A stretch of DNA of 64,000 nt from a virus: positions 64,001 to 128,000 of the IMG/VR virus record IMGVR_UViG_3300042731_011014; one strand, given 5' to 3'. How positions within the stretch are numbered: the stretch's first letter is position 1; each line of letters opens with the position of its first letter. The notes under the pieces are model-generated. The model did not search any database and had not been told where the DNA came from. It saw only the letters and a list, made by a program, of their open reading frames with translations. Of the stretch, positions 1,936-38,100 are shown in pieces. The position numbers and the translations under genes are program-made.

Positions 1936-1985
1936 TACGATCCCTTTACTTTGTCCACGCGTGGGAGTTACCTATAATTTTCTCC

Positions 1986-16765: not shown

Positions 16766-18712
16766 TTACTGTAGGATAAAATAATTTATATCATCCAATG
16801 CTCTAACATTAAAATGAGGAGTTACCTGTGTGGTAGAAGTCTCCAGATAATGATCAAATCTTAGATCTGATCCTGGATTCTTTAATACACCTCTCCAATA
16901 AACGAACATGTTTGCACCATTTCCGCCACCATCCAGCGTATAAGTAGCTCCACCAGGTAACGTATGAGCAGTGTTTTTAGGTATAGCCGTAGTTAACCTC
17001 TCAATAATCCTCGTTATTGATGACGCAGTAATATTATCAGCAAGTGCCTGCAATGATTCAACAATAGTCTCACCATCATTTAGAATCGTTCCAGTATATG
17101 TTCTATCTCCGATTTGAGCATTAATAGTATTCAATATCTCTTCAATATTTGTATTATTCGGATCACCTAAATCACTGAAAATAAATTCGTCACCAGTATT
17201 TGTTAACACTGGCGTCGTTTCACCATCAGATGCCCCGATAAACTCGCGAATCTCAGAGATATCTTGGACTAAAACAGCATCAGCTTGAATTCCACCAATT
17301 AAAGTTGTCCTAAAGGCTGTCTCTGGAAGCTCATTGGTTTGATATCTATCACCATTATAAAAATCCCAATTTCCAGGATGACGTGATACCTGCCATAATA
17401 ACGATCCACTATTACCATCAGTAGCAAAGTTGGATCCGTCAACCGTAACCTCCGTTGCTGAAGCTACAGCAGTAATTTTCGCATGTCTTTGGTTACCATC
17501 AACAGCACATCCCCAAACAGTCAGATACCCTCCAATATCCTCACTTAACATTCCCGATAAGCCAGTAACTGTCGTGCTTGAGTCTGTTACAGATGCTGCG
17601 GATCCGCTCCGACCAGAAATAGGCTCTAACTCTTCTTCTGTTGCAGAACCATTGTTTGTTCCATAAATAAGCTGAGCAAAAAACCTCGTCGCTTCATTAG
17701 TAGTGGTATTATTTGGATCCTTTGCGTCACCATAAGAACGCGCATATAAAGCATTACCAGCCTCATCAACTGGTCTACCGCCAGTAACAGGATCAATCAC
17801 CTCAGTAAATGTCGCATCGTAATTAGTTTCATCATATGCGCCCGAATCGGCAACAGGGATACCACGAAGATCGACTGCATCCGCATAGTTTCTACTTGAA
17901 AGAATACCTTTTAGATCAGACTCAAGCTTCCAGCTAATTGTACCTTCAGCCGTAGCAGAATCAAGACCATCCAGCTCCAAGGTATTCCCATCTGTTACCG
18001 TCTTAATCCGGTAAGATCCATCGGCATCAGTTGACCCAGAAATAGTAATAAAACTGTTTACATCATCCGCAACAAAATGCATATCTGTGAACTCAGCAGT
18101 TTCGTCAGAAATAGCCAAGGTTAAATCACTGCCACTAATTGTTGGTCTTAGTTTAACACTATCTTGCTTTACTGTTATTACACGAGTAGAAGCATCCTCA
18201 GTCTTTCCAGCAATATTCGACAGATTTGCTGGGACGTCAGTACCAATTGCACTAGGTCGCTCATAAGTTGGCACATCATCATAGTAATTGGTAGTTCCCT
18301 TTATTAATCTGCGGTCAGTACGGTGAATATTCTGCTCAACTTCAAGAGAATATGGATCATTTATTTCATAGTCACCACCAAACACCTCAGCAGCACCGGA
18401 TGCATTAATGTACGTCAATGTCGTCCCACCCGGTACCGACTGAATCAAAAACGTACCATTATTTCCACCAGTTGTCGCACTGGAAATTGTAATAAAAGCC
18501 CCTATAAGGGCACTTGTCCATGTTTCACCGGCAATAGTTAATGTAACTACGCCCGCCGCAACAGCAAAATTATCAGTGGTTCCATTTCCGGATCCGCTGT
18601 CCTGTTGTCCACCTTTTTGATTTGGTTCATCAGTTAAAGTTTTCGCTTGATCGAAATTAATCGACCCCTGAACATCGATGAGCTGGCTTAGTCTACCAGG
18701 ATAAACAGACAT
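16766..18712 (-). CDS. Virion structural protein with three small repeated beta-domains
   Basis: Repeats such as GAFITISSA..GNNGTFLIQSV and FITISGS..DGSYRIKTV; Gly/Thr/Asp rich. Confidence 0.65.
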   Translation of the reverse strand: MSVYPGRLSQLIDVQGSINFDQAKTLTDEPNQKGGQQDSGSGNGTTDNFAVAAGVVTLTIAGETWTSALIGAFITISSATTGGNNGTFLIQSVPGGTTLTYINASGAAEVFGGDYEINDPYSLEVEQNIHRTDRRLIKGTTNYYDDVPTYERPSAIGTDVPANLSNIAGKTEDASTRVITVKQDSVKLRPTISGSDLTLAISDETAEFTDMHFVADDVNSFITISGSTDADGSYRIKTVTDGNTLELDGLDSATAEGTISWKLESDLKGILSSRNYADAVDLRGIPVADSGAYDETNYDATFTEVIDPVTGGRPVDEAGNALYARSYGDAKDPNNTTTNEATRFFAQLIYGTNNGSATEEELEPISGRSGSAASVTDSSTTVTGLSGMLSEDIGGYLTVWGCAVDGNQRHAKITAVASATEVTVDGSNFATDGNSGSLLWQVSRHPGNWDFYNGDRYQTNELPETAFRTTLIGGIQADAVLVQDISEIREFIGASDGETTPVLTNTGDEFIFSDLGDPNNTNIEEILNTINAQIGDRTYTGTILNDGETIVESLQALADNITASSITRIIERLTTAIPKNTAHTLPGGATYTLDGGGNGANMFVYWRGVLKNPGSDLRFDHYLETSTTQVTPHFNVRALDDINYFILQ

Positions 18713-18722
18713 TTTAACCTCC

Positions 18723-19013
18723 TTATTCGGCTAGATAATCCGCCAAAAATAAACTTGTTACCTGTGGGGTAAACTTCATCCTGATCATATTATACCCTCC
18801 CCCAGGTACATTTTCATAGACTTCATACTCACTCGGAAGCATCCTTCTCCCATTATGATATAATCTTACAGTCCTCTTTGGCGGATCATATATTGCTGGC
18901 TCAGGTAAGCTGAAAATTCTGCTAGATCCGTCATATACACCAAGCAAATAAACATTTTCCCTAACCCTGCCTGAACCTGCACCGCCAATTGTGAGAGGAC
19001 TAGTAGTTCGCAT
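18723..19013 (-). CDS. Small beta-domain virion protein
   Basis: YDGSSRIFSLP...VRLYHNGRRM..SEYEV pattern seen in phage decoration/fibre modules. Confidence 0.55.
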   Translation of the reverse strand: MRTTSPLTIGGAGSGRVRENVYLLGVYDGSSRIFSLPEPAIYDPPKRTVRLYHNGRRMLPSEYEVYENVPGGGYNMIRMKFTPQVTSLFLADYLAE

Positions 19014-19040
19014 TTCATTTTCCGATCCTTAAAATCAATA

Positions 19041-19361
19041 TTAGTCCTCTAGCTCACTTAAAAAATTAGCTAGCGCCTCTAATCTCTTTTCCTCATCGGA
19101 TTCTTTTTTTATATCATTCAACTCTTCTATTTTCTTATCTGTTTTTGCTTTTATTTTTTCTATTTCTATTCTAGCGCTAGTTTCCTCTTTTTCGATCCGT
19201 TTTTCTACCCTCTTACTTATTTTTCCTTTAGCGTTAACTCTGTCCTTTTTACTCCTTACAATAATAAAAACAATAATCCCAGTAATTAAGCTAAGAAAAA
19301 TATACCAGTGCTTAACAAAAAAATGCCAAAAACTCTTTATTGCATACCATATTTTTTTCAT
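19041..19361 (-). CDS. N-terminal TM plus coiled-coil protein (i-spanin-like)
   Basis: WYIFLSLITGIIVFIIV TM followed by a K/E coiled coil. Confidence 0.55.
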   Translation of the reverse strand: MKKIWYAIKSFWHFFVKHWYIFLSLITGIIVFIIVRSKKDRVNAKGKISKRVEKRIEKEETSARIEIEKIKAKTDKKIEELNDIKKESDEEKRLEALANFLSELED

Positions 19362-19383
19362 AAAGTCACTCTACTTAATTTAT

Positions 19384-19726
19384 GCGGCGGAAACCCCTGA
19401 TTTCAATCAGGGGAGAAGCCGCCTAACAATTAACCACCAAATTATGCATACGAATAACATTGGGAGTTACCTCCCAATTCTCTGCTTTCGCAGGTAAAGG
19501 TCACCTCGGCAAAGTTAATGCACGGTTTTATATGCAAACAGCACTGGCTTAACCCCTTAGACCTGTTTAACCACTTGCCGTAGAGCCTGGGGCTGGTGAA
19601 GCACCCCAGGGTACCTATATATTCGTGCTTAACGTAGCTCAAGAAGTATTGCTCCTTTGCTTAGCCTGGTTAACATAAGGCCTGTAATCTCTCACAAGCC
19701 CTCGACTTCAGTCGAAGGTAGTTGAC
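19384..19726 (-). mobile_element. Non-autonomous IS200/IS605 (IscB-family) mini-element, 343 bp
   Basis: One end GTCAACTACC plus TGAA-loop hairpin; other end GGCGG..CCCCTGAT-TGAA-ATCAGGGG..CCGCCGC. IscB is reduced to an RBS, an ATG at 19460 and a few codons. Removing the element restores AAG TCA TAA. Confidence 0.9.
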
Positions 19727-19746
19727 GACTTAACCGGATTCGGTTT
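19478..19746 (-). ncRNA. HEARO/omegaRNA scaffold (19478-19726) with flank-derived 5' guide (about 19727-19746)
   Basis: Hallmark segments in order: GTCAACTACC, GGCTTG, GTTAACCAGGCTAAG, CTACGTT, GGTACCCTGGGGTGCTTCACCAGCCCCAGGCTCT, TTAAACAG, AAACC, TTGCCGAGG, TTTACC. Confidence 0.85.
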
Positions 19747-20190
19747 TACTAGTTTTGTTATCTCATGTATAGCAAGAGACATTGGCCCAGATAACGCTAA
19801 AATTAAGGCCTCCCACCACTCCTTTCCGGCTCCAATCGTAAGAACAATAAATAATCCACCTCCTAGAACTAAAGTTGCAATCCGAATGTAATTTTTTCCT
19901 TTTTCCTTGAACCATGTGCTTGCCATTTTTAATAAAGAAATTAATAACTTGAAAATTGCCGCGAGCAACGCCATCCACGCTACTAACTCACCTGCATGCT
20001 CCCCTGATTTTAAATCCTTTACTGTCTTCACCAATTTTCCAACATCACCAATAACACCTGAAACATCACCATCACTATTAACTGCATTATCTACAATATC
20101 AGCCGGATCCGTTGATGCATCATTGGCATATGCCATATTTAGCATAATTATTGAAAACATTAAAATTAACACAAAAATTGCTTTAATCAT
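19708..20190 (-). CDS. Signal peptide plus multi-TM membrane protein (holin-like); last 5 codons and stop come from the mini-element
   Basis: Hydrophobic N-terminus and about 3 TM segments; the C-terminus SSTTFD* overlaps the GTCAAC end. Confidence 0.65.
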   Translation of the reverse strand: MIKAIFVLILMFSIIMLNMAYANDASTDPADIVDNAVNSDGDVSGVIGDVGKLVKTVKDLKSGEHAGELVAWMALLAAIFKLLISLLKMASTWFKEKGKNYIRIATLVLGGGLFIVLTIGAGKEWWEALILALSGPMSLAIHEITKLVKPNPVKSSTTFD

Positions 20191-20193
20191 CTT

Positions 20194-20388
20194 TTATCCT
20201 TCCAGTAATAGTTCTGGTTCACGCTTAATGCCACCCTCATCAATTCCCTTTTTTTCAATATGCTTTTGAAGAGCATCCGATATCACCTCGGCAACTGTTT
20301 TTCCTTCCTTGTCTGCAAGTTCTCTCAAATCACCATATAATTCATCTGTAAACATCAAACCATTCAATACATTTACTTTTTTATCCAT
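20194..20388 (-). CDS. Ribbon-helix-helix (CopG-like) DNA-binding protein
   Basis: LMFTDELYGDLRELADKEGKTVAEVISDAL. Confidence 0.75.
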   Translation of the reverse strand: MDKKVNVLNGLMFTDELYGDLRELADKEGKTVAEVISDALQKHIEKKGIDEGGIKREPELLLEG

Positions 20389-20396
20389 CTTTTCAC

Positions 20397-21116
20397 CTAC
20401 TTCTTCGAAGACTTCTCTACAGTATAAGTCTCCTTCATTTTACCGGACCAAACCGTCCTACTGGTAAATTTTACACCCTCACCAGGTATTTGCGCAACTT
20501 CATTAAATGTTAGATCCGCAGTAGCAATCCTAGGTCTGCCACTCGGAAAAAAAGCTTTATAATCAACTGTAATATTCGTAAGTATACAATCTATAAAACC
20601 TATGGAACCTTCTTGCTGCTTTGTCGACGCAGTTCCACCAAGAAATACGTTAGGCATGTATAAGACAAGAATTTGAGGAGGATAGACCCTGTTATCGGCA
20701 TAAGCAGGATAATACAGCGATCTCAACCATGCTATGGCCCCATTGATATCAACATTGTGCTTATCTTGACCAACCTTACCGCCACCGGATGCGGCTGCAA
20801 CAGGAGACAGGGCACCGCCGCCAGCAGTATTAATACCACCATCCTCGTCCCTGCTAAAATAAACAGTAAATGATACAGCCCTAGGACCAAGAGATACCCA
20901 TTGGTATAATGGGAGTGTTCCGCCCGGAACAGATGATTGTGCATACTCAACATTTTGCGATTCTGAAATTGATTCAGGCCAATACTGAAATGCTCTAGGA
21001 TCAGTCCTTGTGTCCTTAGGCGATCCATCATCAATTACCTCAATATACACCCGTGCAAGCTTCTGATCTAGAATATTTTTTCCCAGTTGGGATGCTAATT
21101 TACCTAAAGTAGGCAT
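20397..21116 (-). CDS. Tube-initiator / CIS tube-like baseplate protein
   Basis: FQYWPESISESQNVEY..SVPGGTLPLYQW..LGPRAVSFTVYF...ATADLTFNE. Confidence 0.8.
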   Translation of the reverse strand: MPTLGKLASQLGKNILDQKLARVYIEVIDDGSPKDTRTDPRAFQYWPESISESQNVEYAQSSVPGGTLPLYQWVSLGPRAVSFTVYFSRDEDGGINTAGGGALSPVAAASGGGKVGQDKHNVDINGAIAWLRSLYYPAYADNRVYPPQILVLYMPNVFLGGTASTKQQEGSIGFIDCILTNITVDYKAFFPSGRPRIATADLTFNEVAQIPGEGVKFTSRTVWSGKMKETYTVEKSSKK

Positions 21117-35171: not shown

Positions 35172-38100
35172 GCACTTATTCCCTTGACAATCTTACCATA
35201 ATCTATCGAACTCTTGGAGTACACAGTATTAGTTAAGAGATCTACAGCAAAAATAATACCAGATGTATTTTTTCTACTACCATACTCTACAGCTACTATT
35301 AGGCATGGTGTAAGATTATTTATCACCCTATCCACCATAATTACTCTATTGTAACTTGAATTAAAAATATCATAATCGGCCAGTGAACCCAGTTTTCCAT
35401 AATGAAATGTTACCGTAGCACTTGGCCACGCTATTTTATAAACACCCTCATCTGATGGGATATAAAATGCACTTGTATTTATATCGTATACAGCATTAAT
35501 TTGCGCTATCTCTGTCCTTTCCCCAGATAATGGACTAATAGCAGTGTCAGCGGAAAAAGTACCACCTGAGTCTGACAATGTGCTTTCCCATGTTGACCTC
35601 TGGACGCAGAAAAACCCATCTAATGACATGTAAAATAAATCACCAGAAGAATTAAACCAACACCATCCAATATCACCTGTCTCATTACTATGGGAATACA
35701 ATATACCACTCAAATTTTCCCCACTTGATGAATCACCAAAAAGATACCATCGTTTCCATTTATTAACAGTTACACCGCTTTTACTTGCTATCGCCCTATA
35801 AACATAACCTCCATCCTCAAAAATACAGCTATATCTAGATACGTTATCTTGAATAGCCCATGAGTCATTATCTCCACTATATCCCGCGTCAAGGTTTCTA
35901 GCTGCTATCTGTCCATTTGTCGATTCAATGCCAATTTGACCATTTTTAGTAAACCATGATCCATTCCATGTTCCAAATAATGCACCAGTTATTGAACTGG
36001 ATTCCAATCTAAAAATCCTTATTTCATCTAAAGAAAAATCAACAAAAATAACTAATCCCTCATCTGACTGATAACTTTCAGTTGAGCAGCTTATTATAAG
36101 CAATCCGTTTGTCATAAAAGCTTGTCGAGGTTTTACTCCATCACCAAACAAAGGCAACGCATGACAATCCGCATCTGACGTACCATCAGCTATAAATCTC
36201 ATCCATAATAAATTAGCATCAGTATCTATTATTTCCACAGATGTTTCAGTACACGCTATAATAGCGTGAATTGGAAATTCAGCATTTAATCCCCTATTAA
36301 TGCTAAATCCTTCCCTTGCCCATCCAGCTAAATTTGTAGTAATTCCAGAATTTATCGTAAATCCGAAAATATCCGCGTTAAAATTAGTCGTTGGTGTATC
36401 TAACCATGATCCTAATAAAGCAAAAACATCGCCGGCAAAAACATCATGTGTATAATTTCTAAGAAGCACCCAGCCGCCACCAATATCATAATATACTTCG
36501 ATTAAATTTACTGTCCTCTTAATCCTAAATTTACCAAAAGTCGCAGATGAACCAAGAACCACATCGCTACCCCAACTACCATTTATCTGAACAGAACTCT
36601 TTATTGTATTATTAGTTCTCCTTTGAATATAAATAGCATTATTATTATCAACCCTGATCATAAAATAAAAACCGCCACTACTTGCTAAACCAGAAAAATT
36701 TTCCCATGAGATCTCAATATCAAAATCGGCTACCATATACCATCTACCAGACGATTTCATATATTTAGATTTTCCACCACTCCAAGTTGTATTGGTAGAT
36801 AGCCTCATTTTATCATCATCAATAAGGGAAAAATCAAACTCACTGTCACCGCCAGTTCCAACCGGCTCATCTAAGCCCCACGCCGTATTATCAAAACCGT
36901 CTGCCAGGGTCCCAAAACCCCCTGGACCGCAAACATACCCATCGTAAACAAAAACCCCATCTCTTCTCGCACCATAATAGCCAGTACTTCCCAACAGGCT
37001 ATGCCATATATCAGTCGATCCGTCATAGAAAAAAATTCCAGTTACATTATTTCCATCTAAAAAATCATTACCATGAGAATCAACCTTTCCACGCATGTAA
37101 TCTAGTGACACAATATCCACAAATCCATTATCCTCAAGCGCTAACGGTTCTACATTTTTTGTCTTACTCGGATCAGTTGTCGTTTTTCTGCCCGGTACAA
37201 ATGCCCCGGCTGGCATTTGAATATATCTATTAACAGAAGCGTTCACTGTCTTTATGAAAATATTATCATTATCAAAAAAGAAACATGTCTCTTCCTTTGC
37301 CGAACTCTCGGATGGCTCAAATAACGGTCCAGGTAGACGCGCCGCTCCCCTTATATTATATCCTAAAGTTTTATATCCCCTAACAGGGCCATGATTAATC
37401 AATACCCCTCTGTCTGTCATTTTTATTGGATCAGCATCCCTTTTATTATTCTGCGATTTTCTGTGTCCAGGCACGACTAAACCAATAGTTTCACCAAGTG
37501 GGCTTTTATATTTTCTATTCCCACCAAATGGGGCTAGAGCAAGATTATCCTCAATGACAGACACCTCTCTTTTAAACCTTTGTTGCTCATTGTAAGCCTG
37601 ATAATATCTAAAATAATCAAAACTGATATTTGCAGGCGGAAGAGCACCCCAGTTTTGCAGAAAAACACCAGCTTGAAGATTTTCTATATTAAACTCAAAA
37701 GTATAAGTACATCCAACCTCAGTAAAGGACGCCCCATTATCATCACTATAAAAAAAGGAAACAGTATTCGGATCTATTTTTTCACCAAACCACTCATATG
37801 ATACAGGATACGGTCTCGGATTCCACGCAACTCTATAAATATGATTATTAGTTGACGGATCCGGGACTACGGCAGTCGTACAAACAGTCGAAAATGATCC
37901 ATTATATCCTTTGGTTATTTGAATTTGTGTTGAATCTTTATTATACCCCATCGATATCGCATTCTCTCTATTTGTAAATAATGCAACTCCACCCATACAT
38001 TCAGTCCCAGTACTGCCAAAATCAGTTATCTTAACCTCTACTATGTGAATTTTACCTGATAATCGATTATCTCCATCCTCATCCCCGGTATATTCTAGTC

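What the first reader, a model, noticed from the sequence alone, without database searches (positions are those of the whole stretch)
19384..19746. Orphan omegaRNA mini-transposon whose predicted guide targets the empty allele of the phage's own membrane/lysis gene
Seen: a 343-bp element with both IS200/IS605-type TGAA-loop end hairpins and a full HEARO/omegaRNA scaffold, but with iscB deleted to an RBS, ATG and a few codons. No tnpA or iscB lies in the window. Excising 19384-19726 gives ...AAT CCG GTT AAG TC|A TAA A, restoring a clean stop (KPNPVKS*); the insertion instead supplies SSTTFD*, so it is nearly silent. The bases right after the element are ATAAA. Known: IscB omegaRNAs take their guide from the 5' flank and need a 3' TAM, and ATAAA is the TAM reported for K. 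racemifer IscB-1. Inference: with IscB supplied in trans (host or elsewhere in the phage), this RNA would cut co-infecting relatives lacking the element. That would be an RNA-only homing or phage-competition device embedded in the late operon.
Basis: partly seen in the sequence, partly recalled or inferred. Interest (0 to 1): 0.88.

Follow-up and report, generated by a model that had tools for sequence, protein, structure and literature searches.

The report
Nuclease-less IscB guide-RNA mini-transposon in phage
A 365-base leftover of a Cas9-ancestor (IscB) transposon, with its guide-RNA scaffold intact but its nuclease gene deleted, sits between two late genes of a 178-kb phage. It is one of four such leftovers in this genome at different stages of decay, it is a known kind of element, and the phage has no nuclease that could use it.

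Summary
The core observation holds. Window 19494-19726 (minus strand) is a full-length HEARO/IscB omegaRNA: 140.5 bits against a gathering score of 83. It scores higher than HEAROs in front of iscB genes in two bacteria. Both IS200/IS605-type end hairpins are present and iscB is reduced to a start codon plus its last few codons.

The whole phage (177,890 bp) has no Y1 TnpA and no full IscB.

Two details need correction. The element most likely runs to 19362, not 19384. The motif next to it is then ATGAA, the start codon of the next gene, not ATAAA.

Evidence for the new boundary:
- A second copy and two short remnants elsewhere in the phage all abut an ATGAA start codon.
- 26 related copies in a bacterial MAG abut DTGA.
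- Published work gives N|ATGA as a target of IscB (ISC) transposons and TTCAT as an IscB TAM.

Excision would restore an ATGA stop/start overlap, the commonest gene junction in this phage. A distant relative has that junction at the same site.

That the guide matches the empty site is generic to these transposons. The four copies form a series of deletion decay, so an inert passenger is the best reading. Trans use with a host IscB is possible but untested. This scan has noted orphan omegaRNAs in phages before.

The parts
19362..19726 (-). Whole mini-element (copy A), 365 bp under the preferred boundary.
   Evidence: The guide-side end at 19726 is fixed by alignment with copy B and with 8+ related copies, all starting GTCAAC after unrelated flanks. 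The far end at 19362 is inferred from the ATGAA rule.
19494..19726 (-). omegaRNA scaffold (HEARO, RF02033), full model length
   Evidence: 140.5 bits against a gathering score of 83. 20 of 32 consensus pairs show compensatory changes across 15 related sequences. Copy A breaks one pair, a C-A in the first helix.
19459..19493 (-). Two extra 3' hairpins of the omegaRNA. The second holds the iscB ribosome-binding site and ends at the start codon.
   Evidence: They are conserved in position and co-vary with the MAG family in alignment A2. The hairpin at 19459-19478 is reported.
19441..19460 (-). iscB remnant: the ATG (19458-19460) joined by a microhomology deletion to the last codons of IscB (...YSYA-stop in another frame)
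   Evidence: Compared with copy B, which keeps 37 N-terminal codons (PF14239, 29 bits) and the same C-terminal codons.
19394..19413 (-). Subterminal hairpin of the iscB-distal end (TnpA 'left end'), TGAA loop
   Evidence: Read directly. The 28 bases around it are identical in copy B.
19362..19393 (-). Tip of the iscB-distal end, carrying a weak Shine-Dalgarno-like run before the next gene
   Evidence: Its counterpart in copy B recurs next to other element-derived sequence at window 1936-1985. It is only about 59% identical between copies A and B, so this stretch is the least certain part.
19700..19726 (-). Subterminal hairpin (19700-19718) and last 8 bases of the omegaRNA-side end (TnpA 'right end')
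   Evidence: The MAG family has the same terminal bases. Meers et al. place HEARO at the TnpA right end.
19727..19742 (-). 5' flank that would serve as the roughly 16-nt guide. It encodes the last residues of the 160-aa protein.
   Evidence: Its position follows from established IscB biology (Meers et al.). The guide length is assumed, not measured.
19357..19361 (-). ATGAA, the proposed target/TAM (TTCAT on the TnpA strand). Its first three bases are the start codon of the 106-aa gene.
   Evidence: All four phage loci abut ATGAA. 26 of 26 MAG copies abut DTGA. The GstIscB TAM is TTCAT. N|ATGA target sites were verified with empty sites (Kapitonov 2016).
19708..20190 (-). Upstream late gene, 160 aa, signal-like N-terminus and hydrophobic segments, no family match. 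The insertion adds STTFD to its end.
19041..19361 (-). Downstream gene, 106 aa, N-terminal hydrophobic helix and charged tail
   Evidence: The homologue in relative L004 overlaps the upstream gene by ATGA.
1936..1985 (-). Remnant C of the same element family: about 27 nt of the omegaRNA 3' end fused to about 26 nt of the distal tip, directly before an ATGAA start codon
   Evidence: A 20-nt exact match to copy B (E 9e-5) lies next to a 27-column alignment to copy A with 22 matches. Sequence and ORFs.

Best explanation
Window 19362-19726 (minus strand) is a non-autonomous, nuclease-less derivative of an IscB (ISC) transposon of the IS200/IS605 superfamily, that is, a PATE-like element carrying an omegaRNA.

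How it arrived (inferred): a Y1 TnpA supplied from outside the phage, most likely by the host, inserted it without target duplication directly 5' of ATGA. That site was the former stop/start overlap between a 160-aa and a 106-aa late gene.

What the insertion did (shown in the sequence): it lengthened the upstream protein by five residues. It also broke the overlap, leaving the downstream gene to start behind the element's own tip.

Present state: the nuclease gene was lost by microhomology deletions. The omegaRNA scaffold is intact in sequence and would be transcribed within the late operon, which runs on the same strand. The phage encodes no IscB, so the RNA is at present an orphan.

The element is one of four related insertions in this phage, which form a series of progressive deletion. 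It is therefore most likely a slowly decaying passenger, not a maintained device.
For: - Scaffold: 140.5 bits, full length. This is higher than the HEAROs in front of the intact Nostoc iscB (126.1 bits) and of a truncated Desulfopila-MAG iscB (101.9 bits). Pairs are supported by covariation.
- Mobile element: a second copy lies at genome 132143-132591, between different genes. It shares both ends, keeps a 37-codon IscB stub and has a 32-nt gap in the scaffold.
- Remnants lie at window 1936-1985 and at about genome 37755-37800.
- Target site: all four loci abut ATGAA. Only 21% of this phage's genes start that way, so chance gives about 0.002.
- 26 of 26 related MAG copies abut DTGA. The GstIscB TAM is TTCAT. 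N|ATGA was verified with empty sites in ISC families.
- Empty-site form: an ATGA overlap is the commonest same-strand junction in this phage, 14 cases. The 51%-identical relative L004 has it at the homologous junction, with a C-terminal tail of the same length.
- No nuclease or transposase for it in the phage: PF14239 hits only the stub, PF01797 hits nothing, and tblastn with three IscBs finds only the stub.
- Decay: the deletions sit at short repeats. The series runs A, B, C, D.
Against: - The 22-25 nt between the conserved block and ATGAA are only about 59% identical between copies A and B, against 79-100% elsewhere. A two-copy alignment alone would therefore put the boundary at 19384.
- The hairpin-to-target distance would be 32-35 nt, against 20 nt in the MAG family.
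- A 108-nt stretch of the scaffold is identical in copies A and B while other parts differ by 9-21%. This could mean selection on the RNA rather than recent gene conversion.
- Copy A's scaffold has stayed complete.
- No close relative with an empty site was found, so the insertion is inferred, not seen.
Confidence: 0.65

Rival explanations
1. Trans-acting guide. The late transcript yields an omegaRNA that loads onto an IscB made by the host, a prophage or a co-infecting phage. It then cuts same-species phage genomes that lack the insertion, at guide plus ATGAA. Recombinational repair copies the element in (homing), or the rival is destroyed.
For: - The scaffold is complete and scores as well as those at intact loci.
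- It lies on the same strand as the late genes, so it is transcribed.
- In the reconstructed empty site the guide flank is followed by ATGAA, which matches a tested IscB TAM. In the occupied site other bases follow, so the phage's own copy would be spared.
- PATE-like elements whose omegaRNAs need a nuclease in trans are discussed in the literature.
- Non-restorative homing into co-resident DNA is proposed for phages and reported for plasmids.
- Full IscB genes occur in 33 GenBank phage records.
- The 108-nt block identical between copies A and B is unexpected.
Against: - No IscB in the phage and no host known.
- Copy B's scaffold has lost 32 nt of its most conserved helix, and two further copies are stumps. 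The family is not being maintained in this genome.
- From general knowledge of T4-like phages: host gene expression is shut off early, and pre-existing IscB would already carry its own RNA, while this RNA is made late.
- No target genome is known. The only relative is too diverged to match the guide.
Confidence: 0.2
2. Anatomy: the element ends at 19384 and the flank ATAAA is the TAM. The ATGAA 22 nt further on is only the next gene's start.
For: - Between copies A and B, identity drops sharply right after the shared block that ends at 19384.
- Both flanks there fit a loose N-T-R-R pattern, read directly.
- Part of copy B's flank resembles the spacer at the homologous junction of relative G001.
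Against: - The same 20 nt that follow the block in copy B recur at window 1936-1985, joined to other element-derived sequence. They therefore travel with the element.
- The two flanks would give two different target motifs for one transposase.
- The four-fold ATGAA coincidence would be left unexplained.
- The literature and the MAG family point to ATGA.
Confidence: 0.25
3. Co-opted cis element. The insertion is kept because its tip supplies the ribosome-binding site of the downstream gene, or because its structured RNA uncouples or stabilises the two cistrons.
For: In three loci the tip carries an AAAGGG-type run 6-8 nt before the start codon. The insertion replaced translational coupling at an ATGA overlap.
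Against: - In copy A the run is weak.
- The remnants show that almost the whole element can be lost while the tip stays. This argues that only the tip matters, not the omegaRNA.
- The MAG family's tip has no such run.
Confidence: 0.1

Closest known systems
PATE-like, protein-less IS200/IS605 elements that encode omegaRNAs (Geobacillus stearothermophilus; Meers et al., bioRxiv 10.1101/2023.03.14.532601)
   Same: Both transposon ends and the guide-RNA scaffold are kept with no nuclease or transposase gene. Both activities are needed in trans. The guide comes from the flank and the TAM lies on the other side.
   Different: Here the element sits in a lytic-type phage genome with no cognate nuclease anywhere in it. 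A decay series of four copies is visible.
ISC (IscB) transposons with N|ATGA target sites (Kapitonov et al. 2016, PMC4810608)
   Same: The element starts GTCA..., has subterminal hairpins, makes no target duplication and inserts directly 5' of ATGA. These elements are non-autonomous and mobilised by a Y1 transposase in trans.
   Different: iscB is deleted. The distal tip is longer than in the nearest family seen here: 32-35 nt against 20 nt.
HEARO RNA, Rfam RF02033, the IscB omegaRNA
   Same: Full-length match well above the gathering score, with covariation support.
   Different: The associated ORF is missing. RF02033 does not model the two 3' hairpins that are also kept here (noted by Meers et al.).
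IscB/HEARO family of a MAG labelled Desulfopila aestuarii (G003; loci L008, L011-L057)
   Same: Identical first bases, the same hairpin plan and the same 3' hairpins. Identity to copy A is 82-83% over a 163-nt stretch in the best two copies, and about 75% to copy B over the scaffold's 3' half and the start of iscB. All copies abut DTGA, often a start codon.
   Different: The MAG copies are full-length or partly decayed iscB elements in a bacterial chromosome. They are too diverged to be the donor.
Homing endonuclease genes of T4-like phages, and 'transposon non-restorative homing' (review PMC13565253; plasmid gene-drive preprint PMC11870625)
   Different: Those systems encode their own nuclease. 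Here only the RNA half is present and nothing shows that it is used.

Membership tests
HEARO / IscB omegaRNA (RF02033) | Covariance-model score at or above the curated gathering score over the full model | tested here: met
   140.5 bits against 83, model positions 1-211.
HEARO / IscB omegaRNA (RF02033) | Helices kept, with compensatory changes among relatives | tested here: met
   20 of 32 consensus pairs show double changes. Copy A breaks one pair.
HEARO / IscB omegaRNA (RF02033) | Lies directly upstream of an iscB ORF (PLMP/RuvC/HNH) | tested here: not met
   Only the ATG and the last codons remain in copy A. Copy B keeps 37 codons.
HEARO / IscB omegaRNA (RF02033) | Expressed and processed RNA that binds IscB | not testable with these tools
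IS200/IS605 superfamily, ISC group, non-autonomous (PATE-like) | Subterminal imperfect hairpins at both ends, no terminal inverted repeats, no target duplication | tested here: met
   Hairpins at 19394-19413 and 19700-19718. The flanks are not duplicated.
IS200/IS605 superfamily, ISC group, non-autonomous (PATE-like) | Several copies at unrelated sites sharing the ends | tested here: met
   Copies A and B plus remnants C and D.
IS200/IS605 superfamily, ISC group, non-autonomous (PATE-like) | Fixed short target motif beside the TnpA left end (N|ATGA in some ISC families) | tested here: met
   ATGAA follows at all four loci, with a chance expectation of about 0.002. This depends on the preferred boundary.
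IS200/IS605 superfamily, ISC group, non-autonomous (PATE-like) | Empty site in a close relative | tested here: inconclusive
   No close relative was found in any collection. A 51%-identical relative has an uninterrupted ATGA overlap at the homologous junction.
IS200/IS605 superfamily, ISC group, non-autonomous (PATE-like) | A Y1 transposase available to move it | tested here: not met
   No PF01797 match in the whole phage. The host is unknown.
Working OMEGA system (IscB plus omegaRNA) | Cognate IscB nuclease in the same genome | tested here: not met
   PF14239 and tblastn find only the 34-37-residue stub.
Working OMEGA system (IscB plus omegaRNA) | Guide-matching target followed by the family's TAM in the empty allele | tested here: inconclusive
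   The reconstructed joint gives guide plus ATGAA, which matches the GstIscB TAM. No real empty allele was found.

The most novel reading that the evidence does not exclude
The phage keeps copy A as the RNA half of a split homing system. Transcribed late, the omegaRNA borrows IscB from the host, whose genome would be rich in the same element family. It then cuts co-infecting same-species phages that still have the plain ATGA junction, which spreads the insertion and its flanking late genes or excludes the rival.
Probability: 0.08. Interest if true: 0.75.

Novelty: new member of a known kind. Interest (0 to 1): 0.3.

Why it matters
This is a clean, well-bounded example of a nuclease-less IscB element in a phage. 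One genome shows four stages of decay, from an intact guide-RNA scaffold to a 50-nt stump.

It shows that ATGA-targeting IscB transposons hit phage gene starts repeatedly. After decay, mainly their tips are left behind as new leader sequence for the downstream gene.

For annotation, it explains an odd 365-bp gap and a five-residue tail in a late operon.

It would matter more only if the RNA were shown to work with a host nuclease. That would be a phage-borne, RNA-only homing or exclusion device. Nothing found here supports that over plain decay.

Tried and rejected
Searches for close relatives or an empty site:
- blastn of window 18700-20400 against GenBank phages: no match.
- The 160-aa protein in IMG/VR: none confirmed.
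- The same protein among 5.8 billion proteins: only hits of 40% identity or less, on short contigs.

Searches for the donor or sister elements by exact DNA words:
- Three different 23-30-nt words from the scaffold and the distal hairpin, in viral, genome and metagenome collections: no match in any.
- The IscB stub read through its stop: only three loci at 64-68% identity, from Anaerolineaceae, Nostoc and a Desulfopila-labelled MAG.
- 201 genomes of that MAG's order: only the MAG itself and one weak hit.

Other dead ends:
- Related phages G001 and G002 carry no HEARO.
- The 37-aa stub was too short for two tools.
- ATAAA as the K. racemifer IscB-1 TAM: the paper is not held and no held paper confirms it.

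Ideas considered and dropped:
- A boundary 9-10 nt beyond 19384, copying the 20-nt geometry of the MAG family. It gives inconsistent target motifs.
- The shared motif before the start codons as a native phage promoter or RBS word. Once the four element loci are removed, the 9-mer is not enriched: about 5 seen, about 3 expected.
- Homology running past the start codon into the downstream genes. Only the B-D pair is unusual.
- Candidate remnants at about 38.55 kb and 3.16 kb of the genome. They share only 14 and 12 nt with copy B, which is chance level.

Full report
WHAT IS THERE

The window is bases 64001-128000 of a 177,890-bp IMG/VR virus record rated complete. GC content is 37.8%, and 190 of 195 crude gene calls lie on the minus strand.

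Rfam's HEARO model (RF02033), the RNA now known as the IscB omegaRNA, matches window 19494-19726 on the minus strand. The match covers all 211 model positions at 140.5 bits, against a gathering score of 83. That is higher than the HEAROs in front of an intact Nostoc iscB (126.1 bits) and of a truncated iscB in a Desulfopila-labelled MAG (101.9 bits).

I aligned the phage copies with 13 HEAROs from three bacterial genomes. In that alignment 20 of 32 consensus pairs show compensatory changes, and copy A breaks a single pair. Two small hairpins between the end of the Rfam model and the iscB start codon are also kept, and they co-vary with those of the MAG family.

Behind them, iscB is reduced to its ATG joined to its last few codons. 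The second IS200/IS605-type hairpin follows. The scaffold claim and the 'iscB deleted' claim are therefore correct.

IT IS A MOBILE ELEMENT, AND NOT THE ONLY ONE

A second copy lies outside the window at genome 132143-132591 (L003:1418-1866, minus strand), between two other virion genes.
- It shares both ends with copy A.
- It keeps 37 N-terminal IscB codons (PF14239, 29 bits) fused out of frame to the last codons of IscB.
- It has lost 32 nt of the most conserved helix, so its HEARO score falls to 65.7 bits.
- The differences between the copies are deletions at 3-4-nt repeats.

Two much shorter remnants exist.
- Window 1936-1985: about 27 nt of the omegaRNA 3' end is fused to about 26 nt of the distal tip. 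The tip includes a 20-nt exact match to copy B.
- About genome 37755-37800: three short pieces of the distal end.

The phage has no Y1 transposase and no IscB beyond the stub, by Pfam and by tblastn with three IscB proteins. It does carry an unrelated and apparently complete IS607-type unit, a serine recombinase plus a 393-aa TnpB, near 18-19.8 kb.

WHERE THE ELEMENT ENDS

The omegaRNA-side end (19726) is firm. Both phage copies and every related bacterial copy start with the same six bases after unrelated flanks.

A two-copy alignment does lose identity after 19384. Five things point further out, to 19362.

1. The 20 nt that follow that point in copy B recur at window 1936-1985, joined to other element-derived sequence. 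They therefore belong to the element.
2. All four loci are followed directly by ATGAA, each the start codon of a different gene. Only 21% of this phage's genes start that way, so the chance expectation is about 0.002.
3. In the MAG family, 26 of 26 copies end just before ATGA, TTGA or GTGA, often a start codon.
4. Meers et al. measured TTCAT, the reverse complement of ATGAA, as the TAM of G. stearothermophilus IscB. They also state that HEARO lies at the TnpA right end, so the target motif must lie at the far end.
5. Kapitonov et al. verified N|ATGA target sites with empty sites for ISC families of Cyanobacteria and Proteobacteria.

With this boundary, excision joins the guide-matching bases to the ATG and creates an ATGA stop/start overlap. 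That is the commonest same-strand junction in this phage, with 14 cases. The syntenic, 51%-identical relative L004 has the same junction at the homologous site, with a C-terminal tail of the same length.

Counter-evidence:
- The outermost 22-25 nt are only about 59% identical between the copies.
- The hairpin-to-target distance would be longer than in the MAG family.
- Part of copy B's tip resembles the native spacer of a relative.

All of them restore ...VKS-stop, so the 'clean stop' argument does not choose between them.

The ATAAA match to a K. racemifer TAM could not be verified. Under the preferred boundary it is beside the point.

HOW IT WORKS, AND WHAT IS INFERRED

Shown:
- The anatomy, the copies, and the missing nuclease and transposase.
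- The five-residue extension of the 160-aa protein.
- The orientation, which is the same as that of the late genes.

Inferred from established IS200/IS605 biology:
- A Y1 TnpA from outside the phage inserted the element 5' of ATGA on single-stranded replicating DNA.
- The RNA made from it would carry about 16 nt of the upstream gene's end as its guide.
- Its target would be the uninterrupted junction followed by ATGAA.

This last property is common to every IscB or TnpB element and is the published basis of transposon homing. It is not a special feature of this copy.

WHY DECAY IS THE BEST READING

The four loci form a series:
- A: scaffold intact, no iscB.
- B: iscB stub, scaffold broken.
- C and D: stumps of about 50 nt that keep mainly the tip before the start codon.

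That is what neutral deletion under packaging pressure would produce. It argues that the omegaRNA is not being maintained in this genome.

One observation pulls the other way. A 108-nt block of the scaffold is identical in A and B, while neighbouring parts differ by 9-21%. Recent gene conversion between copies in a recombination-prone phage explains it as well as selection does. Copy B's broken helix sits right beside this block.

THE TRANS-GUIDE IDEA

It is not excluded.
- Protein-less elements whose omegaRNAs need a nuclease in trans are discussed by Meers et al..
- Homing into co-resident DNA is proposed for phages and reported for plasmids.
- Full IscB genes occur in 33 of 50,697 GenBank phage records. 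One is in a Nodularia phage, beside genes annotated as transposases.

But here there is no nuclease, no host, no target genome and no expression data. The closest related elements found are 82-83% identical over a 163-nt core stretch and sit in a single MAG.

I give physiological trans use about 0.2. I give a selected phage-competition role about 0.08.

CONTEXT AND NOVELTY

The flanking genes lie in a contractile-tail module. The 239-aa neighbour matches a contractile-injection-system tube protein (PF19266). The 160-aa and 106-aa proteins match no family, so 'membrane/lysis gene' is unsupported.

This scan has already noted orphan omegaRNAs in phages on other DNA (17 notes). Two follow-ups reached the same PATE-like reading. 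Earlier notes on this genome had flagged copy B and the ATGA idea.

The finding is a new member of a known kind. It is well resolved and modestly interesting for the decay series and for the repeated hits on ATGA start codons.

Noticed in passing
L003:1418-1866 (minus) = genome 132143-132591, outside the window: Second copy of the mini-element between two virion genes. It keeps a 37-codon IscB stub, has a 32-nt gap in the HEARO scaffold (65.7 bits, below the gathering score), and abuts an ATGAA start codon.
   Followed up: yes
window 1936-1985 (minus): A 50-nt intergenic stump made of the omegaRNA 3' end and the element's distal tip, directly before the ATG of a gene of more than 645 aa. It is a third, almost fully deleted copy.
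   Followed up: yes
genome about 37755-37800 (minus), outside the window: Probable fourth remnant: three short pieces of the distal end before an ATGAA start codon. The first 35 nt of the downstream gene are also unusually similar to those downstream of copy B (99th percentile of gene-start pairs). This is unexplained.
   Followed up: partly
L009:1441-3112 (minus) = genome about 18.1-19.8 kb: Apparently complete IS607-type unit in the phage: a 188-aa serine recombinase (PF00239) overlapping a 393-aa TnpB (PF07282). Its ends are unrelated to those of the IscB mini-elements.
   Followed up: partly
L032-L057 (MAG labelled Desulfopila aestuarii, G003): 26 ends of one IscB family all abut ATGA, TTGA or GTGA. 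Many of these look like start codons of the next gene, which suggests that this family systematically lands on gene starts. Many of the iscB ORFs are truncated.
   Followed up: partly
whole genome G000: 190 of 195 crude gene calls lie on one strand. ATGA (-4) and -1 overlaps are the commonest gene junctions.
   Followed up: no
L064 (Nodularia phage vB_NspS-kac68v162, MK605246.1 63326-65988): A full-length IscB, annotated 'HNH endonuclease', is flanked by two genes annotated 'transposase'. Phage-borne IscB elements exist in GenBank but are not labelled as such.
   Followed up: no
On its own it is chance level (E 0.36).
   Followed up: partly
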